In this document: positions 43,710 to 64,000 of the stretch, in pieces | How the letters are laid out: every line of letters begins with the position of its first letter | Numbering within the stretch: the first letter of the stretch is position 1 | Made by a program: the position numbers and the translations under genes | The notes under the pieces: model-generated | Database searches by the model: none | Told to the model about the DNA's origin: nothing | Seen by the model: the letters and a program-made list of their open reading frames with translations, nothing else | Source of the DNA: Chrysomallon squamiferum | Taxonomy: Eukaryota > Animalia > Mollusca | Assembly (NCBI GenBank): GCA_012295275.1 | Contig: CM022677.1 | Coordinates: 5,394,001-5,458,000, forward strand | Direction of reading: 5' to 3' | Length of the DNA: 64,000 bases

Positions 43710-44328
43710 CCACATGTATACAAAGTTAGCTACTAGGATGAACAAGATTTGGTGGAAGTACTCCAAGAAAGTCAGTCTTGGTATGTATAAGGGTGGATAC
43801 ACTGTAGATGATTTTATTTATATTTTAAATTTCTGAAATGCAATGATGTGTTAATGAATTCGATTTAATTGGAAGGGCTGGAAAATCTTGTATATTTCTT
43901 CAGATCACAGTAAAAAAGCATAGGATGGGTCTAAGGTTTGAATATCAATATTTCCGAATGACTTCATATTCTGGTATTAATTAGTGTTATATTATGTCTT
44001 TGTAGGTTGTGTGGCTACACTCGGCACTACGGCAGATATGACTGAACCCGGTCGTCCATTCACCTGATGACACCGAGATCTCATACACCAAGTGTTGCAG
44101 TTCCATGTGCGAAATCACTGGAAAAGTCATCACAGATCTTCACTTAAGTCACAGCTGAGCTCGGACCACATGTGCAGGCCGCCTTATCAATCGAGAACAC
44201 TAAGCGCTGTTTACTCAAGCAACACAGGACTCCTCCAGTACCACAGCATCTCTCTGAGTTCATAGCTACCAGATGAGTGGCAGAAGACCGTTGGCCATTA
44301 TCCAGAGCCATTCCTACTCTACGACAAT
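43710..44328 (+). mobile_element. Mutator-like (FLYWCH + MULE) transposase remnant with one intron (duplicate at ~56640-57257)
   Basis: Exon to 43780 HMYTKLATRMNKIWWKYSKKVSL|G, GT-AG intron 43781-44005, then CVATLGTTADMTEP..HSPDDTEISYTK (FLYWCH-like) and TPPVPQHLSEF/LPDEWQKTVGHYPEPFLLYDN (recalled pre-catalytic MULE motif). Frameshifted and truncated. Confidence 0.6.
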
Positions 44329-46422
44329 TACTTTGCACATTATCGTAACATTGATAATAAAATTTAAATAACCTTCATCCTAACCCTAACCATAACATTC
44401 CTTAAACGTAACCCTAACGAAGGAAATGAACTTAATTCTGATGCTAACACCATTTCTAACTGTGCTCTCAGCTTGAACTTACAGTGGCCTTCAAATGCAT
44501 GGCCACAACGCCTAAATATATCATATCTTATTTTCCAAGCGTTCGATTATATGATTTTTTTATTTTATTTTATTTATTATCATTTTTAATTCTGTCTCTT
44601 GTTCCTTTATTGTTTCGTTCTTTTCATTCTAATTATATTTGTTTTGTTTAATGCTATCATAGTTCATAATTTCTATAATAGTTGTAGCTTTCTTTTACAT
44701 TTTCTTTTTGCATGTTTACTCGTTTATTCCTTTCATTTTCTCATCCGTGTTCCACATCCCGCATTGTAATATTACTCTGTAGGGGAAGTGTACGTATACT
44801 CATCCTGTGACAGAGCCTCTGATTGTTTGAAAGGTGTTTAGCCACAGCTGTGTGATACCTCGATCGACATCATGATTGTTATATTAAAGACAGCGGAAAT
44901 CAGCTGACGCGAAAAAAACAAAACAAAGAATAAATCTTATTTCAGCCAAGTCAATTTAATTTTTTTGCTATTTTTTGTATTTGTGTAGTGGTATATAGAT
45001 GCATATGTAGGATATATTATATATTTCTAGGTTAGGACGCAGTCTCGGCATATGGGGATGGAGGAAATTCGCCTACCGAAAAATTAGATGAGGTAAAACA
45101 AATGTGTTCCTTTCGGTTCTGTTTCTTAGTAATTTGGTTCATAGAAATGGCTAGACTAGTCTCGATAAACCACGATTTTTTGAATATATTTACCTCTGAA
45201 TGTTTTTTTCTTTTACTTCATCTTTTTATTATTATTATTACTTTAAAGAACATTTTTAACTTTAAAGAAAAATGAGATGAGTGAAATATTAAAACAATTT
45301 CAAATATTTCAAGATATATATTCTAATTATTAAAGGTATTATGTGCATTGTCATTTTGTTTGAATTACCTCAAGTTTCAGGCTTTATATAACACTTATAA
45401 TTATTCATCAAAACTAGAAAAAATAAATGCTCTGAAAATTATCTATGAGGAAATTTGTGTTTCCCGTCATGACACTTTTTGCTACGGTATAGTTACCACA
45501 TTCCTTCATAAAACGTGTTAAATGCAAAAGCAAAAATATGATGCTATATAGATGTTGTTGAATAAAACATTCATTCCTTCTTTTTCTCATTAAAAAATAC
45601 TATACTTATTATAAACAATAATAGGTTAAAATGTATATAGTAAATTATTATTACTGTTATTGTTGTGTTATTATTGCTATTTTTACTATTAATATATAGT
45701 ACTACTATTATTACTACTATTACTACTACTACTATTGTTGTTATTAAGGTTATTAATATTATTGATATTAATTTTTATCATCGTCATGATTAAAATTGAT
45801 AAAAATAATTGAAATATCAACAAAAGATAATAAGCAGAAAAAATGTGTTTGTCTGTCAAATGTAGATTGATAAAAAAAAATCATGTTTTTATTAAAATTA
45901 GTAAACTTTATACTTACTACTAATGTTAAATATTTTCAGTAGATCACTTCAGTATCATTGAGGTGCTGCCTAGAAAGGTAACTTACATCAAGGATGAATC
46001 AGCTGTTAGAGAAACCATTCTCATGCATTCTGAGTTGTGAGTTTATTTTATTTTGTGTCTTAGAGACAATTCTTAATTCACAGTAAAACAGTAATAATAA
46101 TCAGTCATTTGCTGTTATGTTAATTTTATTATTATTATTAGTATTAACATTATCATTATAATGCTTTACTTGGTGCCATGGGGATTCCCCTAAGTTGTAA
46201 ATGTGTATCTGTCTCGGGCAGGTACTACCCGAGTTGACTTGCTCTAGTGGTCAGTATGGGATCTATATATGCTATATAATTATAAATACCGTATCACTAG
46301 AACAGAACAAACACAAGCAAGTTTAAAAACTGTATTCACATAACATTGAACATTCACTAGTAAAGCATTATTTTTTTTCAATAACAAGAGTTAGGTTGAA
46401 ATCTATCAGGTCATTTTATTCT

Positions 46423-46551
46423 TCACCCCCCACCAATTTCAGCAATAGCTGGTACTGTAGAATCTATTATAGCTGATGTCGTTAATTCAACAGATGTATC
46501 AAAAGCAAATTCTATTATTTCAGTAGATATAATTCCCAAAGCTGTAAACAT
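46423..46551 (-). pseudogene. Truncated ORF1 of mini-unit C (copy 1)
   Basis: MFTALGIISTEIIEFAFDTSVELTTSAIIDSTVPAIAEI(GGG*) is paralogous to ORF1 of units A and B and runs into the inverted terminal sequence. Confidence 0.75.
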
Positions 46552-47274
46552 CCTAACACATCATCAACAAACAGAAAAATGAAAAATATATACATATAGT
46601 TATATTATATATTATATATCACGTGATATTACGGATATGACGTCATACTCTTCAAAATTAAAAATATGGTGGGGGGGTGAAGAATAAAATGACCTGATAG
46701 ATTTCAACCTAACTCTTGTTAATGTAAAAAAAAACAAAGTTCCTCATGATCTGGCTTTTGGGCTTTTTGGCCATAATGTACTTTTACACTTTTACACTAA
46801 AGCTAGAAAGCCAGCTAATAGTGGAACTTTGTTTTTTTAACAGTAAACAAGAGTTTAGTTGAAATCTATCACGTCTTGATTTTAACACCCACCTTTTTAT
46901 TTTGAAGAGTATGACGTCACATATTAATATTTATTTAATATATTGACGTTATTGTAAATAATAATATGATTATGACGATATGACGTCATTAATTTAATTT
47001 ATTATGTTATTAATATATTGACGTCATTATACCTAATATGTTAATATGACGTCATTATTTTAATATGACAGACGATAAGTAATATTTCGTTATTAATATT
47101 AAATAATAAATAACCACAAACAATTAATAACGTTATATATTTATTGATTTAATGATTACATTTTAACAATTAATAATCATTTTTAATATTATATTTTATT
47201 TATTTAAACATTTATATAAACTTCATAACATTAATAACTTAATTATAGTTTTTAAGTAACGTTTGTATTTCAGT

Positions 47275-47877
47275 TCAATTGTCTGATTTATGCTTGTTAA
47301 AAGATTCAATCTGAGTTTCCAAGATAGTTTGCGTAAACATATCAAGGAAGGGTTGGGTTTCCGGTATGTAATATTTGAATCTTTTTGCTTCAGGATCTTC
47401 CGGTTCTCTTCCCACTGTAATGAAGTGTGGATCAATTTCATCATCTGAATTATCATCACGTTTGCGCTTTAATCCTTGTGATTGAGAACATTTATCTTTT
47501 TGAGATTGCTGTCTTTTAATGAATAGGTCCTGAGATGGATTATATTTCTCGACTTCATCATTGTTATCTTCATCACTTGATATGATAACATAATCTATCT
47601 TATCTGAGGTTGCTCCACTGATCATTGGATCATCATTTAGAATAGGATGTTGTGTTCCCAAAACAGATCGACTATCGTCAAAATTGTCTCGAAAGTAACT
47701 GTTTCTGCCTTCAAACGTATTATCATCAATGTTATTATTGTGTTTGTTAAAAAAATATTCTCGATCGTTCTCTAATGCAATATTAATCTCATCGTCAGTA
47801 GGTTCATATCCAACGGTGAACATCTTGGGATGTATGAGATTATATGCATTGTTAAGAGTTTCGCTCTTTTTGAGATT
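47275..47877 (-). CDS. Unit A downstream ORF (acidic, NLS-like GLKRKR), probably 5'-truncated; function unknown (copy 1)
   Basis: 182-aa track ORF. The frame stays open ~18 codons upstream of the ATG (NLKKSETLNNAYNLIHPK) up to the deletion junction with the capsid-like gene. AATAAA follows on the minus strand. Confidence 0.6.
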   Translation of the reverse strand, partial: NLKKSETLNNAYNLIHPKMFTVGYEPTDDEINIALENDREYFFNKHNNNIDDNTFEGRNSYFRDNFDDSRSVLGTQHPILNDDPMISGATSDKIDYVIISSDEDNNDEVEKYNPSQDLFIKRQQSQKDKCSQSQGLKRKRDDNSDDEIDPHFITVGREPEDPEAKRFKYYIPETQPFLDMFTQTILETQIESFNKHKSDN

Positions 47878-48724
47878 TTGATTTTATATCCGACAAATTC
47901 GTCTGGTAAATTCCAGTCATCTGGCTTAGTACTTGCTTGTTTATACCAATAAGGTATTATATGTCCTCCATGATTAAAGGTTAATTTACATACATTAGGA
48001 TCACCTATAGCTTTTTTCCAATTAGTATTTTCAGTACCATTATCTAATATAGTCATTGTAGCTTTTCTACTCTTATTAAAATTAATAACAACTAGTAAAT
48101 GTTCGTTTAAATGTCTTTTTGATCGTTATATATTTAGGATTAGATCCTTTAGTAGTTCCACCAAATCCTTGATATAATACGTTGTTACCCTGTAGCAGAT
48201 GCCATTGGAGCACCTTCTACTGCTTCACTACCTCCTGTATCGGTGACTTCTTCATTCATTATTGAATCTGGTTCCATGACTGATTCATCCGATTGTAGAT
48301 ATGTTCCTTTATAATTAGATCTTTCTAATACATCTTGAGATATAGTATTAGATAATTGATTATTATTAGGAATTTTAGTACTTGATCCACCTTGTGGTTC
48401 ATCTGTCTGTCTCTTCATGGGTTTACTAGACGACATATTGTTATCTAAAGTGGTTTCCTCTGTATATAAAGGCGAATCGAAATATTCTTCCTCGTTCGAA
48501 TCTTCAAAAACGTTATTATTTTCCCGAATATCTTGTATCGCTTGATAGAAACGTTGAGTTGGTATTTGTAAATTCGGATATTGACGTCGTAACTGTATCC
48601 ACCTATCTTGACGTTGATTAACCGGCACATTTAATTCAGCTAACCTAGAGAATGTCTTAGATTTAGCTATAGCCCAAAGTCTGGTAACTTCTTTCTTGTT
48701 GAGCAGACGTTTACCTCTATTCAT
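47877..48724 (-). pseudogene. Unit A capsid (VP)-like gene, frameshifted and truncated (copy 1)
   Basis: Same as 60805-61651, plus an extra C at ~48189 giving an early stop. Confidence 0.75.
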
Positions 48725-49078
48725 GAAATTGGAATGTTTCTATATACGTAATTGACGTAGTCGTCTTCTTCTTGTTCTAGTTCCTCACGTTCTGATTTAG
48801 ATAATTTATTATCTAAATCTTTACCATCTGAATTAATAAATTCACTAAATTGATTGACAGCTTCTTGTATCTGATTTTTCGTAAATGTAGAAATACCTTC
48901 TATCGATGATTCTACGACAGATTGTCCAATAGCTGTAGCTGGTTCCAAATATATACTGTCAGCTCCCAATATTTCGGTAATAGCAGGTACAGTAGATTCT
49001 ATTATAGCAGATGTAGCTATTTCAACTGAAGCATCAAACGCGTATTCAATAAGCTCAATAACCTAAAGCTGTAAACAT
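48721..49078 (-). pseudogene. Unit A ORF1 (acidic, ~118 codons, 1-nt offset after MFTALG) (copy 1)
   Basis: MFTALG / IELIEYAFDASVEIATSAIIESTVPAITEILGADSIYLEP..YVYRNIPIS*. Its stop overlaps the VP-like ATG (ATGA). Confidence 0.65.
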
Positions 49079-49191
49079 CCCATCACAACGATAGATTGAT
49101 CGTAAATAATCAATAAATTATATATATATATATATATATAATATTTATAACGTATATGACGTCACATATCTTCAAAATAAAAATCAAGACG

Positions 49192-49440
49192 TGATAGATT
49201 TCAACAAACTCTTGTTTACTGTTAAAAAAACAAAGTTCCACTATTAGCTGGCTTTCTAGCTTTTGGCTTTTTGACCATAATGCGCTTTTAACCCGAAGGT
49301 GATAACGTTCCTTCGGGCGAAGCCTGAACCCACGGATCAGATGTTAAAAGTACATTATGGTCAAAAGCCGTAGAAAGCTAAGTTAACAGGTGAACTTTTG
49401 TTTTTAACAGTAAAACAAGAGTTAGGTAGAAATCTATCAG
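49192..49440. repeat. Terminal palindrome, copy 1 (centre 49304-49335 in 'flip' orientation; right arm degenerate)
   Basis: Left arm ends ...aacccgaaggtgat, centre aacgttccttcgggcgaagcctgaacccacgg, right arm has indels. Confidence 0.85.
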
Positions 49441-49583
49441 GTCATGATTTTTCTTTTTGAAGATGTCTATATATGTCACGTGATATTGTCATGTGACATA
49501 TATGAACTATAATAATAGTATTGCGATTAATTATTACTTCAGTCGTCTCACCGTCGTTGTATGTGATAGATGTTCACAGCGTT

Positions 49584-49783
49584 NNNNNNNNNNNNNNNNN
49601 NNNNNNNNNNNNNNNNNNNNNNNNNNNNNNNNNNNNNNNNNNNNNNNNNNNNNNNNNNNNNNNNNNNNNNNNNNNNNNNNNNNNNNNNNNNNNNNNNNNN
49701 NNNNNNNNNNNNNNNNNNNNNNNNNNNNNNNNNNNNNNNNNNNNNNNNNNNNNNNNNNNNNNNNNNNNNNNNNNNNNNNNNNN
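49584..49783. other. Assembly gap (200 N)
   Basis: Run of N. Confidence 1.
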
Positions 49784-50254
49784 ATGGTTCATAGTACAAA
49801 ATCTTAAAGGCATATGTCACTATAATTTAGTATTAGAATTCATTGTTAAAAAAGTGGTGTTTAGTTTTGTCTTAAAATGTTATTGTAATTATATTTCCTA
49901 TTTAACAAACTTCAGTTGGATTAGTAACATCATGCAGAGTGATTTTGACTGCTCAAAATTTATATGAAAATTTCATTGTTTTTGTTCAAGGGACAAATCG
50001 AAAAAACAGTTTTTAGCAAAATAGAATTTTACAATAATTAATTAAGTGTAATAATAACTCAAATAAACAAACAAATAATGGAAATTGGGTCTTTATAAAC
50101 TTTTGGAGTAAATATATGTTACTATTGAAATATTTTGTGATAAATCATTTTAAAGAATTAGCAAAATTCATCTAAATGTAGCAAATCAAATTTAGCTTGA
50201 CACTGCTAAGGGATATAACTTTAACGTGTTTGTAAATATACAAAAAAGACTGAG

Positions 50255-50321
<67 letters not shown>

Positions 50322-50324
50322 GAA

Positions 50325-50362
<38 letters not shown>

Positions 50363-51146
50363 TGATTATGTCAGATTATCTTTTAAATTGATAACAAATA
50401 CAGAAGACGCTGATCAATATATACATAATAAAAATAAAACACACAAAGACTATTCTTTCTTTTATTTTGTTTTAAATTATTTGAATGTGCCTTAACATTT
50501 TAATGTTAAGAAATTGAAACAATTTCAGAAATATTTTCCATTTTCATTATTGTTTTTAGATAAGATGCAATGAGGTTGAATTTGCAAATGTCAGGATTTA
50601 AAACAGTTAAGAACAAATACTATTTTCTTTTTTGAAAAATATTTGTACTGCCACCCATTTATGTAACATAACCTGGTTATATTTTATTAACCAAAAACTC
50701 CAATCATTGCATTCCCCAAAGTAGATATAATAATAAAAGCAAGGACAAAATTAATCACGGTTACAGGATGTTATCTGTGAGAAAGAGTTAATGTGTTTAT
50801 GGTCAGAGAGAACTGTTGTATGTGAAAGACAATGTGTCCTTGTTTATGTATAAATAAATACAAGTTCTAAGTGTTTTGATTGTTTTTTTGTTTTTTTTAA
50901 ATGAACAGAAAAATGATATACAATTAGATATAAAAATATGATTATTAAACTGGATTATTTTAATGATTTATTCTTATATTATTGTCTTGATTTTGAATTG
51001 TTCTTATTAACATTAAATGATATTTGAAAAAACCTGAAATTAATCAGGCTAAAAATAATTTTAGCGCTATTAAAAGCAGTATCATTTTTAAAACATATTT
51101 GCAGTAATTTTTATTTTAAAGAAAATGAAACTGAAATGATGTAATG

Positions 51147-51185
<39 letters not shown>

Positions 51186-51475
51186 GTAATAATAATAAAT
51201 GTTTAAAATTTTACAAGTGTGGGATTTATTATTTGAATTATTATTATTACTTAAGTATTCTAAAATTCCTATTTCGCTTAAAATGTTTTAGTTTTACGAT
51301 TTGCCCCTTGAATAAAAAGAAATATTCATTGTTTATAATAATAATAATAAATCAAATAAACCAAAAAATAATGGAAACTGGTTGATTAGAAAATGAATTT
51401 AATATTGGAATAGTTTGCAATGTTATATCTATTAATGGTCTAAGGGAAACAACTCTATTTAATGGGTTTGTAAAT

Positions 51476-51545
<70 letters not shown>

Positions 51546-52787
51546 TGTGTGTTTTTAGTGTTCATTCTAGTGCTTTGATTGTTTGTTTTCATAAAATCAA
51601 ACAACATGTATATATAAAAAATAATGATTAAATCAGATTATCTTTTGTTGGTTGACAACAAATACCGAAGATGTTATCAATATATACATAATAAAAATAA
51701 AAACACACAAAGACTATTCTTTATTCGTTTATTTTTGTTTTGAATTATTTGAATGTGCCTTAACATTTTTAATGTTAAGAAACTGAAACAACTTAAGCAT
51801 TATTTTCTATTTTGATTATTGTTTTTAGATAAGATGCAATGGGTTTGATTTTGTAAATGTCTCCCATTTACGTAACATAATTTACCTTGGAAACATTAAA
51901 TACCATTTTATACTTCATTTTTTAAAGAGATAATTATTATTTTCTTTCTAATTGAATTAAACAGAAAATACAGATTATAAATAAATTGGAAGACATTTCC
52001 AATTGCACATTTTTGAAATAATTTTTTGAATTTTATGAAAATGTGAAAGGCAAATTATAAAATACTTGGAAACATTCCAATTATGTACATTTTTTTTTGT
52101 TTCTCTTATTTTTTTTTTATCATTTATAAATTATTTTTAGTTTTTTAAAGATTTTTTGTTGAAATAATTCAATTATTCTTTCTAAAGTGGCAATGCAAAT
52201 TATAAAAACTGGTAGAAATGTCTAAACAAAAATAACTGAATATTTAAGTTTTTTTATCTAGACAGGTTTTTAAGTAATTTCAACTTGAAGATCATCATGT
52301 TTCTTCTAATTAAAAATAACAAAGTCATGGTTAATGCAAATAAAATTTTAATTTAGTTAATAGTTAATTTTATTAATAGTCATTGATTTTCCTATGATTT
52401 AAATAATTTAAAGACATTTTTAAAAAAAGATTTCCTGAATTATAAAAAAAAAAAAAAAAATTCTTATTACCCCAACTACACAATCTTCAATTATATTTAT
52501 ATTAGCCCCAGCAAACTCACCTGATTTAAACAAGATAAAGAAAAAACTGGTTGTCACATTAATTTTAGCTTATTTAGAAAAATGGCATTCCATAGCAATG
52601 ATGCATATCCATTCCTCTTCCAGTGAGAAACATTAGAATAACCAAGCACACATCAGTGATAAAAACAGTGCAAGCTGCTATGAAGTACAATGTGTACACT
52701 GGATGTTCTGATCACATTGACAATGCAGTCTCTTGGAGATCACTGAATTTTCAAAATTATTTCCCTTCAGATTTCTCTTTTTTTTTC
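49784..52787 (-). repeat. ~3-kb inverted duplication of 34114-36923
   Basis: The start atggttcatagtacaaaatcttaaaggcatatgtcac is the reverse complement of ~36887-36923. The end ttcccttcagatttctctttttttttc is the reverse complement of 34114-34139. Collinear in between. Confidence 0.93.
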
Positions 52788-53764
52788 TTTGACTGCATCC
52801 ACTGGTTCTGCTGTAGCATTCAAATTGAACTGCCGTTTTGACTTTGGTATCTTCTATTTTTGTTGTTGTAATGTTGCCTCTAAAACCTTTCATTTCTTTG
52901 CCTTTTCTTCCACCTTTTTCTTCTTCTCTGCCAACTCTTCTTCATACCTCTTGACACTTTCTTCTTCTGTCAATGCCTCGGCAGACCTCATCCTCTTGAT
53001 TTTATTTGAAGTTTGACCACGTGCCCGCCACCCACAGATGGACCGTAGACTTTCAACTGTTTCAAAAACCTTAAATAAAACTCAGAATAGACTACATCAA
53101 TGCCAACACTATTGATTGCACCACCAAATATGGGGGCCAAGAAGTGTCTATAATAGTTTCAGTTAAAGAGCACATTAAATCACAAAACCTATAATACTTA
53201 ATTATCACATAATATCTGGTAAAATAAAATAATCCATCTGATTAGAGTAACCCGGAGAGTGAGAGAGAGAGAGTAAGAAAGCCTAAGGGAGATATTTATA
53301 TGTCATAAGTACATACACTTCTGTTGGCCTGTCTGTCTTTCTGTATATAGAAAGGGCTTTCAAATTAATGGCACTGTATTCGAAATCAGAAAACAGTAGC
53401 AATACCCTATGTATCCATCTGTTCATCTATCTTCAGTAACTATCTCTGTATGTAGTATTTCTATTTATCTATCATAAATCTATCTATCTGTCTATATATC
53501 TACCCAATTAATATAATATTAATGTACTAATTAGCCATTCCCTTTGGAAATGTTGCCACACATACACCACGGTGATGTTCAGTACACGTAGGGGATGTTA
53601 GTAATGGTTAGTATTTGTTAAATGTTAGTATTTGTTGACGGTTAGTATTTGGTTAACAGTTAGTTTTTAGTTAATGGCTAATATTTGGTTAGTGGTTAGA
53701 ATTTTGTCAATGGTTTGTTAAATGTTAGTATTTGGTTAATGGTTACTCGCTTTCTCTCTGTCTA

Positions 53765-53859
<95 letters not shown>

Positions 53860-54195
53860 TCCATCTCTCTAACTCGCTCTCTTCTCTCAACACAAAATTA
53901 ACAATTTTACGCTCTAGAAATCATTATATCTGTGAAATTTAAATAACGTGTCGGTATGAAAAGGCTGAAAAACAGTATTTACATGTATTTGAAATCATAA
54001 TAAATAAAATATAGAAATGTTCACGTATTAAAACGGAATTTCGTAACAAATATAAATTCTTGACCTTATTTTTACTCTGAATAGCATGAATGAAAAAATA
54101 TTAAGATTTTAATAAAGAAAGATTTTAAATATGTGAAATAAATTAAGAATGCACAAATAGAGATACTACTACTACCACTACTACAACTACCACTT

Positions 54196-54234
<39 letters not shown>

Positions 54235-57200
54235 ATAATAATAATAATAATAATAATAATAGTAATATATATATATAATGTATATATAAAAAGTCCTGAC
54301 GTATCACCGATAGTGGGAGGAGTTTACTCCGCCAAGTAAAAATTGCATCGATTAGAGTTATTTCCCTTTAGTGATATGTGTTCACAAACATACTTTAGAC
54401 ATATGTCCCTTACATGAGATGTACTCACTAAGCAAACTAAAAATTACATCGATTATAGTTATCTCCCTTTAGTGATATGTGTTCACAAACAGGGATGAGA
54501 GTTATGTCTCTTACGTGAAACATTTAATAATAATTTGTATTATCTAATAAAATCTGTGTCATGTCTCTGACTCCCCCCACACACACGCAGAACATGTGAC
54601 TGTCCTCAGTAACGAACTGCCTCTGTTACCCTGCAGTAGCAACTGAGCCAAAAGTACTTGAACGAAATCTCAAACAGTTTGAGGAGAGTTTTCAGAAACA
54701 GACTTACTTTCCAGAACAACTGCAGAGAGGGGTAGGTTACGAGGATTACGATGCTGATGAGCGTCTTACAGGAGCAGCATTTACATCTTGTGATAATGTC
54801 TCTCATCAGCTGTCATATTCACATCCCGCTCTGTCTCAATACAAGGACAACAAGTAAATGGAAGGAGAGAAGTGATCACTCGATCAACATTCTCACTTAC
54901 GTTTTACAAAACTGATTCTCATTATCGGGGAGATGTTTAGGAAGATGTATTCCTGTGTTTCGGCTATTACAGTGGGGTCTATGCTATATGTCGCTTGTGT
55001 TACATGTAGAGGATCTGTAGTGCTATATCTTTTTAATCCAATATCTGTGGACATTTTTCGCCAGGTCAGCAAATGTGACCAAAGTGATTACTCGTGCAAA
55101 AAAAACAACAGCCACACGTTAATGCTAAAGTGAAGCCAGCTAACATTTCCAACCTTAACGTTATAGAGTTATCGGTTGGTTAACAAAACAGTTTATCACA
55201 GGCGATAACTCTATTAACAAAAGTTTGCTATTGTTTTTCCTTATTAATTCAAGTATTAGTTCGCTAAAGTGAAGCCAACGAACAAATCTAGCGAACTCTT
55301 ACAAAGTCAGGTTGAAGAATTATCGGTTGGTTAACGGAACAAGTTATCATGGGAGATAACTCTGTAACCTTGTATTTGCTATGTTTTTCCTTTTCAATTC
55401 CAGTAGGGTTACTATCCTGTCAGTGACTCTGTTTGTTCAAGGCATTGCCTTGTGCCTAGTATATTACAGACTGTGTTATGTCCTACCCTGTCACTGAGTC
55501 TCTTTCTTCAAAGCAATGCATCGTGTCTAATATATTACAGACTGTGGTATGTACTATCCTGTGACTGAGTATTTTTTGTTCAAGGCAGTGCACTGTATCT
55601 AGTATTACAGACTGTGGTATGTACTACCCTGTCAGTGTCTGTTCAAGGCAGTGCATCGTGTGTACTATATTACAGACTGTGGTATGTACTATCCTGTCAG
55701 TGACTCTGTTTGTTCAAGGCAGTGCATTGTGTCTAGTATATTAGAGAGTCTGGTATGTACTACCCTGTCAGTGAGTCTGTTTGTTCAAGGCAGTGTGTAG
55801 TGCCTAGTATATTATAGACTCTGGTATGTACTACCCTGTCACTGAGTCTGTTTCTTCAAGTCAGTGGAAGGTGTCTACTATATTACAGACTGTGGTATGT
55901 ACTATCCACTCAGTGACTATTTGTTCAAGGCAGTGCCTCGTGCCTAGTATATAACAGGCAGTGGTATGTACTATCGTGTGAGTGAGTATTTTTGTTCAAG
56001 GCAGTGCACTGTATCTAGTATTACAGACTGTGGTATGTACTACCCTGTCAGTGTGTCTGTTCAAGGTAATGCATCGTGTTTAGAAATTATTTTCTTGCCA
56101 AACAATATTTTTCATGCTTCTTAAATACTCATCATAAATATGCAGCTCTTTCTCCCTTTAATTATCATTCCCCAATTGATAATCCATATGTTTCACCATA
56201 AATACTATGACAATCTATATCTCAACATCTCTCTAACATAAGTCAGTTTCCCAAATAAGTTGCCCAATTGAGTTTTAATTTCATTGAGTCCTTGACCTAT
56301 CCAGTGGGTTCTTTAAATGTCTCAGTTATCATTTTCTTGAAGAAGCCATTTAAGAAGCCATTCTCTAATTGAACCATTCAAAGGGTAATCCCTTCTCTTT
56401 ATGTCCTCAGACTTATCCCTTTATCTTAACTACAGATCTATCCCTTTATCTTATCTTCAGATTTATCCCCTTATCTTATCTTCAGATCTATCCCTGTATA
56501 TGGCTTCCCAGATGGCTTCCCCCACTTAACCCATGCTATGAATATAAAAGCTCTGAGGGAGCACCATTCCTGAGACTCATTAGTGCCATCGTTAGAATAC
56601 ACATCACAAACATATCAATAAAATTACGATGAAGTCATGCCACATGTATACAAAGTTAGCTACTAGGATGAACAAGATTTGGTGGAAGTACTCCAAGAAA
56701 GTCAGTCTTGGTATGTATAAGGGTGGATACACTGTAGATGATTTTATTTATATTTTAAATTTCTGAAATGCAATGATGTGTTAATGAATTCGATTTAATT
56801 GGAAGGGCTGGAAAATCTTGTATATTTCTTCAGATCACAGTAAAAAAGCATAGGATGGGTCTAAGGTTTGAATATCAATATTTCCGAATGACTTCATATT
56901 CTGGTATTAATTAATGTTATATTATGTCTTTGTAGGTTGTGTGCTACACTCGGCACTACGGCAGATATGACTGAACCCGGTCGTCCATTCACCTGATGAC
57001 ACCGAGATCTCATACACCAAGTGTTGCAGTTCCATGTGCGAAATCACTGGAAAAGTCATCACAGATCTTCACTTAAGTCACAGCTGAGCTCGGACCACAT
57101 GTGCAGGCCGCCTTATCAATCGAGAACACTAAGCGCTGTTTACTCAAGCAACACAGGACTCCTCCAGTACCACAGCATCTCTCTGAGTTCATAGCTACCA

Positions 57201-59349
57201 GATGAGTGGCAGAAGACCGTTGGCCATTATCCAGAGCCATTCCTACTCTACGACAATTACTTTGCACATTATCGTAACATTGATAATAAAATTTAAATAA
57301 CCTTCATCCTAACCCTAACCATAACATTCCTTAAACGTAACCCTAACGAAGGAAATGAACTTAATTCTGATGCTAACACCATTTCTAACTGTGCTCTCAG
57401 CTTGAACTTACAGTGGCCTTCAAATGCATGGCCACAACGCCTAAATATATCATATCTTATTTTCCAAGCGTTCGATTATATGATTTTTTTTTATTTTATT
57501 TTATTTATTATCATTTTTAATTCTGTCTCTTGTTCCTTTATTGTTTCGTTCTTTTCATTCTAATTATATTTGTTTTGTTTAATGCTATCATAGTTCATAA
57601 TTTCTATAATAGTTGTAGCTTTCTTTTACATTTTCTTTTGCATGTTTACTCGTTTATTCCTTTCATTTTCTCATCCGTGTTCCACATCCCGCATTGTAAT
57701 ATTACTCTGTAGGGGAAGTGTACGTATACTCATCCTGTGACAGAGCCTCTGATTGTTTGAAAGGTGTTTAGCCACAGCTGTGTGATACCTCGATCGACAT
57801 CATGATTGTTATATTAAAGACAGCGGAAATCAGCTGACGCGAAAAAAACAAAACAAAGAATAAATCTTATTTCAGCCAAGTCAATTTAATTTTTTTGCTA
57901 TTTTTTGTATTTGTGTAGTGGTATATAGATGCATATGTAGGATATATTATATATTTCTAGGTTAGGACGCAGTCTCGGCATATGGGGATGGAGGAAATTC
58001 GCCTACCGAAAAATTAGATGAGGTAAAACAAATGTGTTCCTTTCGGTTCTGTTTCTTAGTAATTTGGTTCATAGAAATGGCTAGACTAGTCTCGATAAAC
58101 CACGATTTTTTGAATATATTTACCTCTGAATGTTTTTTCTTTTACTTCATCTTTTTATTATTATTATTACTTTAAAGAACATTTTTAACTTTAAAGAAAA
58201 ATGAGATGAGTGAAATATTAAAACAATTTCAAATATTTCAAGATATATATTCTAATTATTAAAGGTATTATGTGCATTGTCATTTTGTTTGAATTACCTC
58301 AAGTTTCAGGCTTTATATAACACTTATAATTATTCATCAAAACTAGAAAAAATAAATGCTCTGAAAATTATCTATGAGGAAATTTGTGTTTCCCGTCATG
58401 ACACTTTTTTCTACAGTATAGTTACCACATTCCTTCATAAAACGTGTTAAATGCAAAAGCAAAAATATGATGCTATATAGATGTTGTTGAATAAAACATT
58501 CATTCCTTCTTTTTCTCATTAAAAAATACTATACTTATTATAAACAATAATAGGTTAAAATGTATATAGTAAATTATTATTACTGTTATTGTTGTGTTAT
58601 TATTGCTATTTTTACTATTAATATATATTACTACTATTATTACTACTATTACTACTACTACTATTGTTATTAAGGTTATTAATATTATTGATATTAATTT
58701 TTATCATCGTCATGATTAAAATTGATAAAAATAATTGAAATATCAACAAAAGATAATAAGCAGAAAAAATGTGTTTGTCTGTCAAATGTAGATTGATAAA
58801 AAAAAATCATGTTTTTATTAAAATTAGTAAACTTTATACTTACTACTAATGTTAAATATTTTCAGTAGATCACTTCAGTATCATTGAGGTGCTGCCTAGA
58901 AAGGTAACTTACATCAAGGATGAATCAGCTGTTAGAGAAACCATTCTCATGCATTCTGAGTTGTGAGTTTATTTTATTTTGTGTCTTAGAGACAATTCTT
59001 AATTCACAGTAAAACAGTAATAATAATCAGTCATTTGCTGTTATGTTAATTTTTATTATTATTATTAGTATTAACATTATCATTATAATGCTTTCCTTGG
59101 TGCCATGGGGATTCCCCTAAGTTGTAAATGTGTGTCTGTCTCGGGCAGGTACTACCCGAGTTGACTTGCTCTAGTGGTCAGTATGGGATCTATATATGCT
59201 ATATAATTATAAATACCGTATCACTAGAACAGAACAAACACAAGCAAGTTTAAAAACTGTATTCACATAACATTGAACATTCACTAGTAAAGCATTATTT
59301 TTTTACAATAACAAGAGTTAGGTTGAAATCTATCAGGTCATTTTATTCT

Positions 59350-59478
59350 TCACCCCCCACCAATTTCAGCAATAGCTGGTACTGTAGAATCTATTATAGC
59401 TGATGTCGTTAATTCAACAGATGTATCAAAAGCAAATTCTATTATTTCAGTAGATATAATTCCCAAAGCTGTAAACAT
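59350..59478 (-). pseudogene. Truncated ORF1 of mini-unit C (copy 2)
   Basis: 42-aa reading MFTALGIISTEIIEFAFDTSVELTTSAIIDSTVPAIAEIGGG*. Confidence 0.75.
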
Positions 59479-59839
59479 CCTAACACATCATCAACAAACA
59501 GAAAAATGAAAAATATATACATATAGTTATATTATATATTATATATCACGTGATATTACGGATATGACGTCATACTCTTCAAAATTAAAAATATGGTGGG
59601 GGGGTGAAGAATAAAATGACCTGATAGATTTCAACCTAACTCTTGTTAATGTAAAAAAAAACAAAGTTCCTCATGATCTGGCTTTTGGGCTTTTTGGCCA
59701 TAATGTACTTTTACACTTTTACACCAAAGCTAGAAAGCCAGCTAATAGTGGAACTTTGTTTTTTTAACAGTAAACAAGAGTTTAGTTGAAATCTATCACG
59801 TCTTGATTTTAACACCCACCTTTTTTATTTTGAAGAGTA

Positions 59840-59982
59840 TGACGTCACATATTAATATTTATTTAATATATTGACGTTATTGTAAATAATAATATGATTA
59901 TGACGATATGACGTCATTAATTTAATTTATTATGTTATTAATATATTGACGTCATTATACTTAATATGTTAATATGACGTCA
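59840..59982. promoter_or_regulatory. Cluster of perfect CRE/ATF palindromes (TGACGTCA)
   Basis: TGACGTCA at 59840, 59909, 59947 and 59975, plus 59565 and 62076. Copy 1 has them at 46638, 46912, 46981, 47019, 47047 and 49157. Confidence 0.6.
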
Positions 59983-60202
59983 TTATTTTAATATGACAGA
60001 CGATAAGTAATATTTCGTTATTAATATTAAATAATAAATAACCACAAACAATTAATAACGTTATATATTTATTGATTTAATGATTACATTTTAACAATTA
60101 ATAATCATTTTTAATATTATATTTTATTTATTTAAACATTTATATAAACTTCATAACATTAATAACTTAATTATAGTTTTTAAGTAACGTTTGTATTTCA
60201 GT

Positions 60203-60805
60203 TCAATTGTCTGATTTATGCTTGTTAAAAGATTCAATCTGAGTTTCCAAGATAGTTTGCGTAAACATATCAAGGAAGGGTTGGGTTTCCGGTATGTAAT
60301 ATTTGAATCTTTTTGCTTCAGGAACTTCCGGTTCTCTTCCCACTGTAATGAAGTGTGGATCAATTTCATCATCTGAATTATCATCACGTTTGCGCTTTAA
60401 TCCTTGTGATTGAGAACATTTATCTTTTTGAGATTGCTGTCTTTTAATGAATAGGTCCTGAGATGGATTATATTTCTCGACTTCATCATTGTTATCTTCA
60501 TCACTTGATATGATAACATAATCTATCTTATCTGAGGTTGCTCCACTGATCATTGGATCATCATTTAGAATAGGATGTTGTGTTCCCAAAACAGATCGAC
60601 TATCGTCAAAATTGTCTCGAAAGTAACTGTTTCTGCCTTCAAACGTATTATCATCAATGTTATTATTGTGTTTGTTAAAAAAATATTCTCGATCGTTCTC
60701 TAATGCAATATTAATCTCATCGTCAGTAGGTTCATATCCAACGGTGAACATCTTGGGATGTATGAGATTATATGCATTGTTAAGAGTTTCGCTCTTTTTG
60801 AGATT
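60203..60805 (-). CDS. Unit A downstream ORF, probably 5'-truncated; function unknown (copy 2)
   Basis: 182-aa track ORF 60203-60751, frame open to ~60805. Minus-strand AATAAA at 60123-60128. Confidence 0.6.
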   Translation of the reverse strand, partial: NLKKSETLNNAYNLIHPKMFTVGYEPTDDEINIALENDREYFFNKHNNNIDDNTFEGRNSYFRDNFDDSRSVLGTQHPILNDDPMISGATSDKIDYVIISSDEDNNDEVEKYNPSQDLFIKRQQSQKDKCSQSQGLKRKRDDNSDDEIDPHFITVGREPEVPEAKRFKYYIPETQPFLDMFTQTILETQIESFNKHKSDN

Positions 60806-61651
60806 TTGATTTTATATCCGACAAATTCGTCTGGTAAATTCCAGTCATCTGGCTTAGTACTTGCTTGTTTATACCAATAAGGTATTATATGTCCTCCATG
60901 ATTAAAGGTTAATTTACATACATTAGGATCACCTATAGCTTTTTTCCAATTAGTATTTTCAGTACCATTATCTAATATAGTCATTGTAGCTTTTCTACTC
61001 TTATTAAAATTAATAACAACTAGTAAATGTTCGTTTAAATGTCTTTTTGATCGTTATATATTTAGGATTAGATCCTTTAGTAGTTCCACCAAATCCTTGA
61101 TATAATACGTTGTTACCTGTAGCAGATGCCATTGGAGCACCTTCTACTGCTTCACTACCTCCTGTATCGGTGACTTCTTCATTCATTATTGAATCTGGTT
61201 CCATGACTGATTCATCCGATTGTAGATATGTTCCTTTATAATTAGATCTTTCTAATACAGCTTGAGATATAGTATTAGATAATTGATTATTATTAGGAAT
61301 TTTAGTACTTGATCCACCTTGTGGTTCATCTGTCTGTCTCTTCATGGGTTTACTAGACGACATATTGTTATCTAAAGTGGTTTCCTCTGTATATAAAGGC
61401 GAATCGAAATATTCTTCCTCGTTCGAATCTTCAAAAACGTTATTATTTTCCCGAATATCTTGTATCGCTTGATAGAAACGTTGAGTTGGTATTTGTAAAT
61501 TCGGATATTGACGTCGTAACTGTATCCACCTATCTTGACGTTGATTAACCGGCACATTTAATTCAGCTAACCTAGAGAATGTCTTAGATTTAGCTATAGC
61601 CCAAAGTCTGGTAACTTCTTTCTTGTTGAGCAGACGTTTACCTCTATTCAT
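60805..61651 (-). pseudogene. Unit A capsid (VP)-like gene with a 1-nt insertion (~61019) and 3' deletion (copy 2)
   Basis: Track ORFs 61010-61651 and 60700-60984 join into one protein aligning with unit B VP up to ..DEFVGYKIK, after which similarity stops abruptly. Confidence 0.8.
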
Positions 61652-62005
61652 GAAATTGGAATGTTTCTATATACGTAATTGACGTAGTCGTCTTCTTCTT
61701 GTTCTAGTTCCTCACGTTCTGATTTAGATAATTTATTATCTAAATCTTTACCATCTGAATTAATAAATTCACTAAATTGATTGACAGCTTCTTGTATCTG
61801 ATTTTTAGTAAATGTAGAAATACCTTCTATCGATGATTCTACGACAGATTGTCCAATAGCTGTAGCTGGTTCCAAATATATACTGTCAGCTCCCAATATT
61901 TCGGTAATAGCAGGTACAGTAGATTCTATTATAGCAGATGTAGCTATTTCAACTGAAGCATCAAACGCGTACTCAATAAGCTCAATAACCTAAAGCTGTA
62001 AACAT
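61648..62005 (-). pseudogene. Unit A ORF1 (copy 2)
   Basis: ATG at 62005, 1-nt offset after MFTALG, then open to the TGA overlapping the VP-like ATG. Confidence 0.65.
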
Positions 62006-62111
62006 CCCATCACAACGATAGATTGATCGTAAATAATCAATAAATTATATATATATATAATATTTATAACGTATATGACGTCACATATCTTCAAAATAAA
62101 AAATCAAGACG

Positions 62112-62370
62112 TGATAGATTTCAACTAAACTCTTGTTTACTGTTAAAAAAACAAAGTTCCACTATTAGCTGGCTTTCTAGCTTTTGGCTTTTTGACCATA
62201 ATGCGCTTTTAACCCGAAGGTGATCCGTAGGGTTCAGGCTTCGCCCGAAGGAACGTTATCACCTTCGGGTTAAAAGTACATTATGGTCAAAAAGCCAAAA
62301 GCTAGAAAGCCAGCTAATAGTGGAACTTTGTTTTTTTAACAGTAAACAAGAGTTAGGTAGAAATCTATCA
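62112..62370. repeat. Terminal palindrome, copy 2: 113-bp arms (5 mismatches) around a 33-nt asymmetric GC-rich centre ('flop')
   Basis: Arms 62112-62224 and 62258-62370. Centre ccgtagggttcaggcttcgcccgaaggaacgtt with inner stems cttcg/cgaag and gttc/gaac. Confidence 0.95.
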
Positions 62371-62399
62371 GGTCATGATTTTTTCTTTGAAGAGATGTC

Positions 62400-62475
62400 T
62401 ATATATGTCACGTGATATTGTCATGTGACATATATAGACTATAATAATAGTATTGCGATTAATTATTACTTCAGT
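62400..62475 (+). promoter_or_regulatory. Putative promoter of unit B
   Basis: 16-bp inverted repeat with a CACGTG E-box (62400-62436), TATA-like tataata at 62440, TCAGT initiator-like motif at 62471, ATG at 62502. Confidence 0.45.
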
Positions 62476-62501
62476 CGTCTTCACGTCGTTGTATGTGATA
62501 G

Positions 62502-62846
62502 ATGTTCACAGCGTTAGGTATTGATCGAATACGCTTTCGATGCTTCTGGTGAACTTGCTACATCTGCTATAATAGATTCGACTGCACCAGCTATTACAGA
62601 AATAATAGGAGCTGACAGTTTGTTATTGGAACCAGCTACAGCTATAGGACAGAGTATAGTGGAGTCGTCTGTTGAAGGTATTTCTACATATACTAAAAAC
62701 AAGAGACATTAGATCAATTTGTCGACTTTGTTACACCGGATATAAAGGATATAGACGCTGACGTTTCTCCATCGGAACGACAGCAATTAGAGCAGGAAGA
62801 GGACGAATACGTAACTTACGTATATAGGAATAGTCCGGTTTCATGA
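62502..62846 (+). pseudogene. Unit B ORF1 (acidic; offset after MFTALG and a frameshifting deletion near 62700)
   Basis: MFTALG / LIEYAFDASGELATSAIIDSTAPAITEIIGADSLLLEPATAIGQSIVESSVEGISTYTKN / QETLDQFVDFVTPDIKDIDADVSPSERQQLEQEEDEYVTYVYRNSPVS*. Aligns with unit A ORF1 throughout. Confidence 0.75.
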
Positions 62847-64000
62847 ATAAAGGAAAACGTCTTCTGAATAAAAAGGAAGTGACGAGACTTTGGGCTATAG
62901 CTAAATCCAAAGCATTTTCGATATTATCGGATTTCAATGTCCCATTTGAAGAACGACAAACCAGGTGGCTACAGATCAGACGTCAGTATCCAAATCTACA
63001 AATTCCTAATCAAAATTTCTATCAGGCAATACAGAATCTTAGGGAGAACTATAACGCTGCTGAAGATTCGGACGAAGACGACCCTTTCAGCACCCCTTTA
63101 TACCCAGACGACGACATCAACAACAACCAACAACCAGCAGCAGGGAGAGATATTGAACGATCCGGAAATCAAGATACTAAACCAGCTATGAAACGACAAA
63201 CAAGCGAACCAGCCGGTGGAAGTAATTCTAAAGTTGCTAATAATAACAAGCAACTGTCTCACAGGATATCGCAAGATGTCATAGAACAGTCTAATTCTAA
63301 AGGAACCTATCTTCAGCCTAACGAATCGGTGATGGAACCCGATTCGATTATGAACGAAAAGGTAACAGATACAGGAGGAAGTGAGGCTGTCGAAGGTGCT
63401 CCGATCGCTTCGGCTACAGGTAATAATGTTTTGTACCAAGGATTTGGAGGATGTACTAAAGGAGCTGATCCCCGATATATAACGATAAAAAAGACATTTA
63501 AACGAACATTTACGAGTACCATTAATTTTACTAAAACCAGAAAGGCTATTATGAAAATATTAGATAATGATACGGATGATGTAAATTGGAAAAAAGCTAT
63601 AGGTGATCCTAATGTTTGTGAATTAACGTTTAATCACGGTGGTCATATTACACCCTATTGGTATAAACAGGCCAGCACCAGACCAGATGACTGGAATTTA
63701 CCCGATGATTTTGTTGGATATAAAATAAAACGATTTGGTTTCAATATAAACAATATGATTATACATGTATTAAATAATAATAAATCAGATCCGAATGAGG
63801 TACCAGTAATGGCACCTCCAAATTCACGTGTGTGGACGTTCACCGATATCTATAATGATTATGGTCCACCGGAGAAGAATTTAAACCTATCTCACAACCA
63901 TTATTTTAGAGATGAGGAATGTATGGATAGTACTAGTCTTAGGAGTATACCAGTTCAACCCGATCGTAAACTGTATCTGCCCAGTGACGTAGGAATGCAA
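62843..64000 (+). CDS. Unit B parvovirus-like capsid protein (VP), open to the window end (386 codons, 3'-partial)
   Basis: Manual translation shows no stop: MNKGKRLLNKKEVTRLWAIAKSKAFS..GGSEAVEGAPIASATGNNVLYQGFGG..YITIKKTFKRTFTSTINF..FNHGGHITPYWYKQASTRPDDWNLPDDFVGYKIKRFGFNINNMIIH..APPNSRVWTFTDIYNDYG.. A disordered N-terminus, Gly-rich linker and strand/helix pattern resemble hamaparvovirus-type jelly-roll capsids. No PLA2 motif seen. Confidence 0.75.
   Translation, partial: MNKGKRLLNKKEVTRLWAIAKSKAFSILSDFNVPFEERQTRWLQIRRQYPNLQIPNQNFYQAIQNLRENYNAAEDSDEDDPFSTPLYPDDDINNNQQPAAGRDIERSGNQDTKPAMKRQTSEPAGGSNSKVANNNKQLSHRISQDVIEQSNSKGTYLQPNESVMEPDSIMNEKVTDTGGSEAVEGAPIASATGNNVLYQGFGGCTKGADPRYITIKKTFKRTFTSTINFTKTRKAIMKILDNDTDDVNWKKAIGDPNVCELTFNHGGHITPYWYKQASTRPDDWNLPDDFVGYKIKRFGFNINNMIIHVLNNNKSDPNEVPVMAPPNSRVWTFTDIYNDYGPPEKNLNLSHNHYFRDEECMDSTSLRSIPVQPDRKLYLPSDVGMQ

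What the first reader, a model, noticed from the sequence alone, without database searches (positions are those of the whole stretch)
62225..62257. Flip/flop: the hairpin centre is inverted between the two genomic copies
Seen: the copy 2 centre is ccgtagggttcaggcttcgcccgaaggaacgtt. The copy 1 centre (49304-49335) is aacgttccttcgggcgaagcctgaacccacgg, its reverse complement minus one base, while all flanking sequence is in the same orientation. Known: two inverted-complement forms of an imperfect terminal palindrome are the hallmark of parvoviral terminal resolution. Inference: both copies share one integration junction, so the inversion arose after integration. This could be recombination between the arms, template switching, or processing by a Rep acting in trans on a still-recognised origin.
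Basis: partly seen in the sequence, partly recalled or inferred. Interest (0 to 1): 0.85.

Follow-up and report, generated by a model that had tools for sequence, protein, structure and literature searches.

The report
Inverted tip of integrated densovirus hairpin
The tip of a virus-type DNA hairpin buried in an animal genome reads in opposite directions in two near-identical stretches of this assembly, but the two stretches are likely one locus assembled twice, and the flip is likely an ordinary small hairpin inversion, not viral replication at work.

Summary
The centre 62225-62257 is the reverse complement of 49304-49335 at 32 of 33 positions, and both flanks keep their orientation.

The centre is the imperfect tip of a 295-nt palindrome with 131-nt arms. 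The palindrome joins two diverged copies of a capsid-like gene head to head. A language-model search places that gene nearest densovirus and parvovirus capsid clusters, but it has no Pfam match and no usable fold. No Rep/NS1 gene is in the window.

The "two genomic copies" are a 9.7-kb repeat, 98.2% identical. Copy 1 stops at a 200-N gap, and its second hairpin arm carries 23 errors in 131 nt, mostly missing bases. It is likely the same locus assembled twice.

The eight mismatches between the arms are not swapped between the copies. So only the core, at most 69 nt between the innermost markers and bounded by perfect 18-bp inner stems, is inverted. That fits host recombination or template switching. 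It argues against Rep resolving the whole hairpin.

Long reads are needed. Interest is moderate.

The parts
62225..62257 (.). Hairpin tip (centre), copy 2 orientation; an imperfect 33-nt palindrome
49304..49335 (.). Hairpin tip, copy 1; reverse complement of the copy 2 tip, minus one base
62094..62224 (.). Left arm of the palindrome, copy 2 (marker GCGC at 62203-62206); the last 18 nt pair perfectly with the first 18 nt of the right arm
   Evidence: (I21)
62258..62388 (.). Right arm of the palindrome, copy 2 (marker GTAC at 62276-62279); 123 of 131 positions complementary to the left arm
49176..49303 (.). Left arm, copy 1; 0 substitutions and 3 missing bases against copy 2
49336..49457 (.). 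Right arm, copy 1; error-rich (10 substitutions, 11 missing, 2 extra bases) but of the right-arm type at the marker columns
39878..49583 (+). Repeat copy B1 (9.7 kb); ends at the scaffold gap
52783..62515 (+). Repeat copy B2; 98.2% identical to B1 over 9772 alignment columns
49584..49783 (.). 200-N scaffold gap between the two contigs
49786..52785 (-). Start of the second contig: reverse complement of 34115-36920 (94-98% identical), joined to B2 across a TTTT microhomology
59618..59810 (.). Second hairpin joint with the tip and inner stem deleted (left arm 59618-59713, 12-nt filler, right arm 59726-59810); the same joint lies in B1 at about 46691-46883
59726..62224 (-). Left, defective virus-derived unit of about 2.5 kb. 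Its ends 59726-59810 and 62100-62184 are 100% complementary over 85 nt. It holds a capsid-like gene cut after the equivalent of residue 272 of P0001 and split into separate frames, plus an unexplained 202-aa ORF
61648..61989 (-). Open 113-aa ORF upstream of the left capsid-like gene; its counterpart in the right unit (about 62515-62830) is frameshifted
62834..64000 (+). Right unit: capsid-like ORF, 389 aa, still open at the window end; 49% identical to P0001
62076..62083 (.). One of 12 TGACGTCA palindromes in the window (0.42 expected by chance). All 12 lie in the virus-derived DNA beside the hairpins. They are read here as promoter elements, which is an inference

Best explanation
The 33-base centre is the imperfect tip of a 295-base parvovirus-type hairpin that joins two integrated, diverged densovirus-like genome copies head to head, and it is inverted between two 9.7-kb near-identical stretches of the window; these stretches are likely one locus assembled twice (overlapping contig ends or two haplotypes), and the inversion was likely made by host recombination or template switching between the perfect inner stems, not by a viral Rep.

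Shown: the inversion itself; the palindrome and its fold; the shared flanks; the unswapped arm markers; the contig-end position and error pattern of copy 1; and the purifying-selection signature between the two capsid-like copies.

Inferred: the parvoviral origin (it rests on hairpin architecture and a language-model match to capsid clusters); that the joint is a fossil of ITR-to-ITR joining of two viral genomes; that B1 and B2 are one locus; and the host mechanism of inversion.
For: (1) Inversion: 32 of 33 columns match in reverse complement against 18 of 34 in direct alignment.
(2) Hairpin: 62090-62392 folds as single-stranded DNA at -138.4 kcal/mol, against -28.2 +/- 3.4 for 100 shuffles. 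The tip folds as an I-shaped imperfect stem in both orientations (-24.0 and -26.4 kcal/mol for the 77-nt core).
(3) Arm markers are not swapped. The arms differ at 8 of 131 columns. Copy 1's left arm has 0 substitutions against copy 2's left arm and 7 against the reverse complement of the right arm. Copy 1's right arm has 10 substitutions against copy 2's right arm and 17 against the reverse complement of the left arm. The inverted piece therefore lies between the innermost markers, which is 69 nt at most and is bounded by perfect 18-bp stems.
(4) One locus assembled twice. B1 ends at a 200-N gap. B1 and B2 differ by 50 substitutions and 24 indels over 9426 nt before the tip. Divergence falls from 3.6% at the left breakpoint to 0-0.4% in the body, which looks like heterozygosity beside a structural variant. 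Copy 1's second arm has 23 differences in 131 nt, 11 of them missing bases. That is the pattern reported for nanopore reads after an inverted-repeat junction (PMC7229812, passages read).
(5) Two viral lineages joined at one hairpin. Left versus right capsid-like copies give dN/dS 0.15 (214 codons) and 0.08 (70 codons), with dS above 1, while the arms are 94% alike. The left unit has 85-nt ends that are 100% complementary.
(6) The right unit is at host depth in independent runs. Flank contigs left versus right: 76 vs 90 (X1), 27.8 vs 25.7 (X2), 66.6 vs 99.1 (X5).
(7) Loop inversions at palindromes occur within species without any viral enzyme (PMC2903610, abstract only).
Against: No read-level proof was obtained. 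So one locus versus two, and whether any molecule outside the assembly carries copy 1's orientation, remain open.

The second contig begins with 3 kb that is inverted relative to the first contig. A plain overlap of contig ends does not predict this; it needs an inversion haplotype, a chimeric read or a real complex duplication.

The plastid precedent for loop inversion comes from a high-copy recombining genome. I did not find a nuclear precedent of this size.

The one-base difference in the tip could mean that the donor was another hairpin copy and not the same allele.

Parvoviral identity is not proven: no Pfam family matched, the profile search of solved structures found nothing, the AlphaFold model was unusable (mean pLDDT 28.1), and there is no NS1.
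Confidence: 0.45

Rival explanations
1. B1 and B2 are two real paralogous copies made by a complex duplication: B duplicated directly, the 34-37 kb segment duplicated in inverted orientation, and the pieces joined at a TTTT microhomology. The tip was inverted in one paralogue afterwards by the same host mechanism, or by conversion from another hairpin copy.
For: The junction at 52785/52786 is clean, with a 4-nt microhomology, as replication-based rearrangements leave. The start of the second contig is not what a simple overlap predicts. The differences between B1 and B2 are mostly substitutions and microsatellite indels, not random read errors.
Against: Copy 1 stops at a gap, so its continuation is unknown. 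Divergence is uneven (2-5% in the inverted segment, 0-0.4% in most of B), whereas one duplication event predicts uniform divergence. The three B1-specific variants nearest the hairpin (equivalents of 61972, 62098, 62126) appear in no contig of 4 runs, although contigs drop variants.
Confidence: 0.2
2. Copy 1's orientation exists in no molecule. It would be an artefact of consensus building or short-read polishing at a low-coverage contig end, within a hairpin family that is multi-copy in this genome.
For: Copy 1 lies within 250 nt of a contig end, and its second arm was left uncorrected. Summed contig depth on the hairpin is 74 to 306 times that of the right flank in 4 runs. Reads from other hairpin copies, in either orientation, could therefore be recruited during polishing. 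Inside the perfect inner stems, the flipped form is simply the reverse complement of the other form, so aligners cannot tell the strands apart.
Against: Random errors cannot produce a 32-of-33 reverse complement. A read placed on the wrong strand would also bring the wrong arm markers and the wrong outer flank, but copy 1 has the correct markers and correct flanks on both sides. It would take two exact switches inside 18-bp stems.
Confidence: 0.2
3. A parvoviral Rep/NS1 supplied in trans, by a related exogenous virus or another endogenous copy, still recognises this origin and flipped the hairpin by terminal resolution after integration.
For: The hairpin is intact, and flip and flop are the products of terminal resolution (established parvovirus biology; described for a densovirus in PMC12297876, passages read). 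A sequence variant of the capsid-upstream region sits at 10-14 times flank depth in 3 of 4 runs and is absent from the fourth. That would fit a related replicating virus or a polymorphic array in this host.
Against: The arm markers are not swapped, whereas resolution from a nick at the base of the palindrome would invert the arms together with the tip. No Rep gene was found among the 37 of 41 ORFs of 90 aa or more that were scanned; the other 4 are B1 duplicates of scanned ORFs. On an internal joint, resolution is expected to break or excise the DNA, not to leave a neat in-place inversion (inference from the known mechanism). No episomal form was seen: the right unit tracks host depth.
Confidence: 0.04

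Closest known systems
Terminal hairpins of homotelomeric ambisense densoviruses, e.g. Bemisia tabaci ambidensovirus (I-shaped hairpin with a 55-nt flip-flop palindrome; PMC12297876, passages read)
   Same: A long imperfect palindrome with an asymmetric tip that exists in two inverted forms. TATA-like and other promoter-like motifs lie just outside the hairpin and face an inward-reading capsid gene. One unit has matching inverted repeats at both ends.
   Different: Here the hairpin is internal, sitting between two integrated genomes, and is not at a free end. The stem is longer (131 nt). The capsid-like protein matches no Pfam capsid or PLA2 family. No NS1 was seen. The two forms are seen in an assembly, not in virion DNA.
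ITR-to-ITR joints of AAV concatemers and proviruses: head-to-head or tail-to-tail, with one complete or partly deleted ITR (recalled; PMC8749450 seen only in the search listing)
   Same: Two genomes in opposite orientation share a single hairpin. The neighbouring joint (59618-59810) has lost its tip and inner stem, like the deleted ITR joints of vector concatemers.
   Different: The two joined genomes differ by 17-27% in the coding part and show a purifying-selection signature. They are therefore different lineages and not sister molecules. The host is an invertebrate-like, AT-rich genome.
[quoted passage not shown]
   Same: An integrated densovirus-type sequence that retains foldable telomere sequence.
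   Different: That integrant lacks the first 40 nt of the ITR and is reported in one orientation. Here the complete palindrome is kept and both orientations are recorded.
Small loop inversions at palindromes, e.g. intraspecific inversions in the plastid trnH-psbA spacer (PMC2903610, abstract only)
   Same: A short segment bounded by perfect inverted repeats is found in both orientations among near-identical sequences, with the flanks unchanged and no dedicated enzyme involved.
   Different: Those are plastid loci with much shorter stems. This is nuclear DNA of viral origin with 131-nt arms.
False duplications from unpurged haplotigs or overlapping contig ends in long-read assemblies (recalled general knowledge)
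   Same: About 10 kb of near-identical sequence on both sides of a scaffold gap, with one copy ending at the gap and a low-quality end.
   Different: The second contig does not start at the overlap; it starts with 3 kb of inverted sequence.

Membership tests
Parvoviridae-type genome end (densovirus-like ITR and hairpin) | Imperfect terminal palindrome that folds into a stable hairpin with an asymmetric tip | tested here: met
   -138.4 kcal/mol, z = -32; the tip folds imperfectly in both orientations
Parvoviridae-type genome end (densovirus-like ITR and hairpin) | Matching inverted repeats at both ends of a genome unit | tested here: met
   59726-59810 and 62100-62184 are 100% complementary over 85 nt. 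The unit is a defective piece of about 2.5 kb, and its left repeat lacks the inner stem and tip
Parvoviridae-type genome end (densovirus-like ITR and hairpin) | Both flip and flop forms of the tip | tested here: met
   The two forms are seen between two assembly copies, not in viral DNA
Parvoviridae (virus family) | NS1/Rep gene with HUH endonuclease and SF3 helicase domains | tested here: not met
   No Parvo_NS1 or other replication family matched in the 37 of 41 ORFs of 90 aa or more that were scanned; the 4 left out are B1 duplicates. The right unit runs off the window at 64000, so an NS1 beyond the window is not excluded
Parvoviridae (virus family) | Jelly-roll VP capsid protein | tested here: inconclusive
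   No Pfam family matched the window ORFs or the relatives P0001-P0003, P0010, P0011, P0013 and P0014. The PDB profile search found nothing. The AlphaFold model had mean pLDDT 28.1. The ESM Atlas feature search with residues 185-690 of P0003 scored 0.95 for its first hit, a cluster where 25% of members carry Denso_VP4 and 14% VP1_2, and 9 of the 10 best hits with a family share a family or clan. That is a lead and not a proof
Parvoviridae (virus family) | PLA2 motif in the VP1 N-terminus (present in most but not all subfamilies) | tested here: not met
   No PLA2-type Pfam family matched. Some invertebrate parvoviruses lack it (recalled)
Rep-mediated terminal resolution acting on this integrated hairpin | The whole palindrome is inverted from a nick at its base, so mismatches between the arms change sides | tested here: not met
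   Copy 1's left arm is the left type (0 vs 7 substitutions) and its right arm is the right type (10 vs 17)
Hairpin-loop (spacer) inversion by recombination or template switching between inverted repeats | The inverted segment is bounded by perfect inverted repeats and everything outside them is unchanged | tested here: met
   Perfect 18-bp inner stems (62207-62224 and 62258-62275) flank the tip, and the markers just outside them are unchanged
Assembly redundancy (one locus present twice) | One copy ends at a gap and is near-identical to the other, with a low-quality end | tested here: met
Assembly redundancy (one locus present twice) | Read depth of the repeated stretch equals single-copy depth, and the variants behave as alleles | not testable with these tools

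The most novel reading that the evidence does not exclude
An endogenous densovirus-like telomere is still a live DNA element. The intact hairpin at this joint toggles between flip and flop in the germ line or soma of its host. The same hairpin family has spread to tens or hundreds of copies, and a related virus, or an endogenous Rep, may still act on it.
Probability: 0.07. Interest if true: 0.8.

Novelty: new member of a known kind. Interest (0 to 1): 0.35.

Why it matters
Most endogenous parvoviral elements are gene fragments without telomeres. A complete, foldable terminal hairpin preserved at a head-to-head joint records how such viruses concatenate and integrate in an invertebrate-like genome. 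It also gives the telomere sequence of a capsid lineage that no Pfam model recognises.

If the two tip orientations prove to be real alleles or somatic variants, this would be a clean nuclear example of palindrome-tip toggling at a former replication origin. My two literature searches for such a case listed none.

On the practical side, the locus shows how a strong palindrome can break a long-read assembly and leave a false duplication. Anyone counting viral insertions in this genome would need to correct for that.

Tried and rejected
**Capsid-like ORF (62834-64000) and its relatives**
- No match in the phage collection (tblastn) or by sequence in the PDB.
- No match among longer proteins.
- No relatives in IMG/VR contigs.
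- The PDB profile search found nothing.
- The AlphaFold2 model on a 5-row alignment was unusable (mean pLDDT 28.1), so no fold search was run.
- The whole-library HMMER search was never accepted: 7 tries met a full queue.

**Other sequence searches**
- The 202-aa ORF 60203-60811 had no homologue among longer proteins and only a sub-threshold Pfam hit.
- An 18-nt inner-stem motif gave 0 matches in viral contigs.
- A 19-nt tip motif gave 21 matches in metagenome contigs. All are bare word matches in GC-rich contigs (49-73% GC) with no hairpin context (local score 19-22), so I rejected them as chance.

**Genome, runs and reads**
- No whole genome is held for this window.
- Earlier notes of this scan had nothing.
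- Sequencing runs: no RNA holder is listed.
- Contigs of 4 runs laid on 61900-62600 do not span the palindrome. Inside the perfect stems they cannot tell flip from flop, because one form is the reverse complement of the other. Seeing no copy-1-type contig is therefore no evidence.
- One 200-nt contig of run X3 (depth 8.4) crosses the tip in copy 2's configuration but has 13 other letters, so it may come from a paralogue.
I did not repeat it in any form.

**Explanations considered and rejected**
- A wrong-strand read placement as the source of the flip: it would bring the wrong arm markers and the wrong flank.
- An episomal virus mis-joined to the host locus: the right unit tracks host depth in 3 runs.

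Full report
**Observation.** The reverse complement of copy 1 matches copy 2 at 32 of 33 columns, with one base missing. The direct alignment matches only 18 of 34 columns. The flanks on both sides keep their orientation.

**What the centre belongs to.** It is the tip of a 295-nt palindrome. The arms 62094-62224 and 62258-62388 are complementary at 123 of 131 positions. As single-stranded DNA, 62090-62392 folds at -138.4 kcal/mol, against -28.2 +/- 3.4 for shuffles. The tip is itself an imperfect stem, so its two orientations differ, and both fold about equally well (-24.0 and -26.4 kcal/mol for the 77-nt core).

Outside the arms lie TATA-rich stretches and TGACGTCA palindromes. All 12 TGACGTCA sites in the window (0.42 expected by chance) sit in this virus-like DNA.

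From each side an ORF reads away from the hairpin:
- The right ORF (62834-64000) is open for 389 aa and runs off the window.
- The left one is cut after the equivalent of residue 272 of P0001 and is split into separate frames.

**Is it parvoviral?** The ORF has two relatives in the 5.8-billion-protein set. P0001 is 49% identical (E = 1.5e-106), and P0002 scores E = 4.9e-63. P0001's cluster holds 690-aa full-length forms, with several members per large contig and no names. None of them matches any Pfam family. A PDB profile search found nothing, and the AlphaFold model was unusable (mean pLDDT 28.1).

The only positive protein evidence comes from the ESM Atlas feature search. The whole of P0001 scored 0.89 against parvovirus capsid clusters. 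Residues 185-690 of P0003 scored 0.95 against a cluster in which 25% of members carry Denso_VP4. Nine of the ten best hits with a family share a family or clan.

No NS1 is in the window: 37 of 41 ORFs of 90 aa or more were scanned, and the other 4 are B1 duplicates. The hairpin architecture matches that described for homotelomeric densoviruses (PMC12297876, passages read). Taken together, I regard a densovirus-like origin as likely but not proven.

**Anatomy of the insert.** The left and right capsid-like copies are only 73-83% identical in DNA. Between them dN/dS is 0.15 (214 codons) and 0.08 (70 codons), with dS above 1. They therefore diverged while functional, that is, as separate viral lineages. 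The hairpin arms, in contrast, are 94% alike.

A second joint lies 2.4 kb to the left (59618-59810). It has lost its tip and inner stem. Its right arm (59726-59810) is 100% complementary to 62100-62184. So the left unit is a defective genome of about 2.5 kb with perfect 85-nt inverted ends. To its left lies the end of a third copy (59363-59713).

The locus is thus an array of virus-derived units joined ITR to ITR in alternating orientation. This resembles AAV concatemer joints, a comparison I make from recall; PMC8749450 was seen only in the listing.

**Are there two genomic copies?** B1 (39878-49583) and B2 (52783-62515) align at 98.2% over 9772 columns. Before the tip they differ by 50 substitutions and 24 indels in 9426 nt. 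Divergence is 3.6% at the left end, falls to 0-0.4% through the body, and rises to 4-7% over the last 700 nt.

B1 ends at a 200-N gap. Its second hairpin arm has 10 substitutions, 11 missing and 2 extra bases in 131 nt, while its first arm has 0 substitutions. Errors and missed bases just after an inverted-repeat junction are the reported behaviour of nanopore reads (PMC7229812, passages read). This suggests that a few uncorrected reads of one strand built this contig end.

The next contig starts with 3 kb that is the reverse complement of 34115-36920 (94-98% identical). It joins B2 across a TTTT microhomology. This needs an inversion haplotype, a chimeric read or a real complex duplication. 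I judge "one locus assembled twice" more likely than "two paralogues", roughly 55 to 25, but I could not test it.

**Independent reads.** Contigs of four runs from three studies were laid on 61900-62600.
- Flank contigs on the two sides have similar depth: X1 76 vs 90, X2 27.8 vs 25.7, X5 66.6 vs 99.1. The right unit is therefore integrated and not an episome.
- No contig spans the palindrome.
- Within the perfect inner stems, flip is the reverse complement of flop, so these data cannot score orientation at this locus.
- The B1-specific variants nearest the hairpin were not seen. Contigs drop variants, so this is weak evidence.

**Mechanism.** The arms differ at 8 of 131 columns, and these markers are not exchanged between the copies. 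The inverted piece therefore lies between the innermost markers. It is at most 69 nt long: the tip plus the perfect 18-bp inner stems.

Terminal resolution from a nick at the base of the palindrome would carry the arms along with the tip. On an internal joint it should also break or excise the DNA, which is an inference from the known mechanism. A small inversion by recombination or template switching between the inner stems fits what is seen. So does conversion from another hairpin copy lying antiparallel. Such inversions have precedent at palindromes within species (PMC2903610, abstract only).

A pure artefact remains possible, because the hairpin family is multi-copy and the contig end is poor. 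It would, however, need two exact switches inside 18-bp stems.

**Verdict.** The reading as a parvovirus-type flip/flop pair is apt as a description. The step from there to post-integration viral processing is not supported. The case is a new example of known kinds: an endogenous densovirus-like array that keeps a complete telomere, plus a hairpin-tip inversion. Its reality at the DNA level still has to be shown with long reads.

Noticed in passing
window 62212-62379 (and the equivalent left arm): Summed contig depth on the hairpin is far above that of the flanks in all 4 runs. The peak bin 62260-62283 against the right flank is 6713 vs 90 (X1), 5461 vs 25.7 (X2), 936 vs 5.9 (X3) and 30310 vs 99 (X5). 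Many short variant contigs and loose ends lead into other contexts. This suggests that the hairpin sequence is present in tens to hundreds of copies in this organism, many more than the capsid-like gene. Summed contig depth is not a true copy number.
   Followed up: partly
window 61900-61979: A variant of the region upstream of the capsid-like gene (8-9 differences in 80 nt) has 10-14 times the flank depth in runs X2, X3 and X5 and is absent from X1 (place 61933). This could be a related replicating virus or a polymorphic multi-copy array.
   Followed up: no
window 59298-59850 (B1: about 46370-46925): A nest of telomere fragments. A 61-nt inverted pair (59298-59358 and 59599-59659, 98% complementary) brackets a 240-nt piece of the capsid-upstream region. 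After it comes a hairpin joint whose tip and inner stem are replaced by 12 nt.
   Followed up: partly
window 60203-60811 (-): A 202-aa open frame directly downstream of the cut capsid-like gene in the left unit. It is acidic and low in complexity. It has no homologue among longer proteins and no Pfam family above cut-off.
   Followed up: partly
window 34115-36920 and 49786-52785: A 2.8-3.0 kb segment is present twice in opposite orientation (94-98% identical, with a net length difference of about 190 nt). In the second contig it abuts B2 across a TTTT microhomology at 52785/52786.
   Followed up: partly
window 42482-43160 and 55410-56089: An array of tandem repeats with a 71-nt period inside both B copies (81-85% identity between units).
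   Followed up: no
window 14949-15788 (+) and 23462-23782 (+): Host-like coding pieces. One is a 280-aa frame with a C3HC4 RING finger (E = 7.9e-08). The other is a 107-aa frame with a 2OG-Fe(II) oxygenase domain (E = 1.2e-10). The window is 30% G+C and rich in microsatellites, which fits an AT-rich animal genome.
   Followed up: no
window 62515-62830 vs 61648-61989: The 113-aa ORF upstream of the capsid-like gene is open in the left, otherwise broken unit. In the right unit, whose capsid-like ORF is open, it is frameshifted. So each unit is damaged in a different part.
   Followed up: partly
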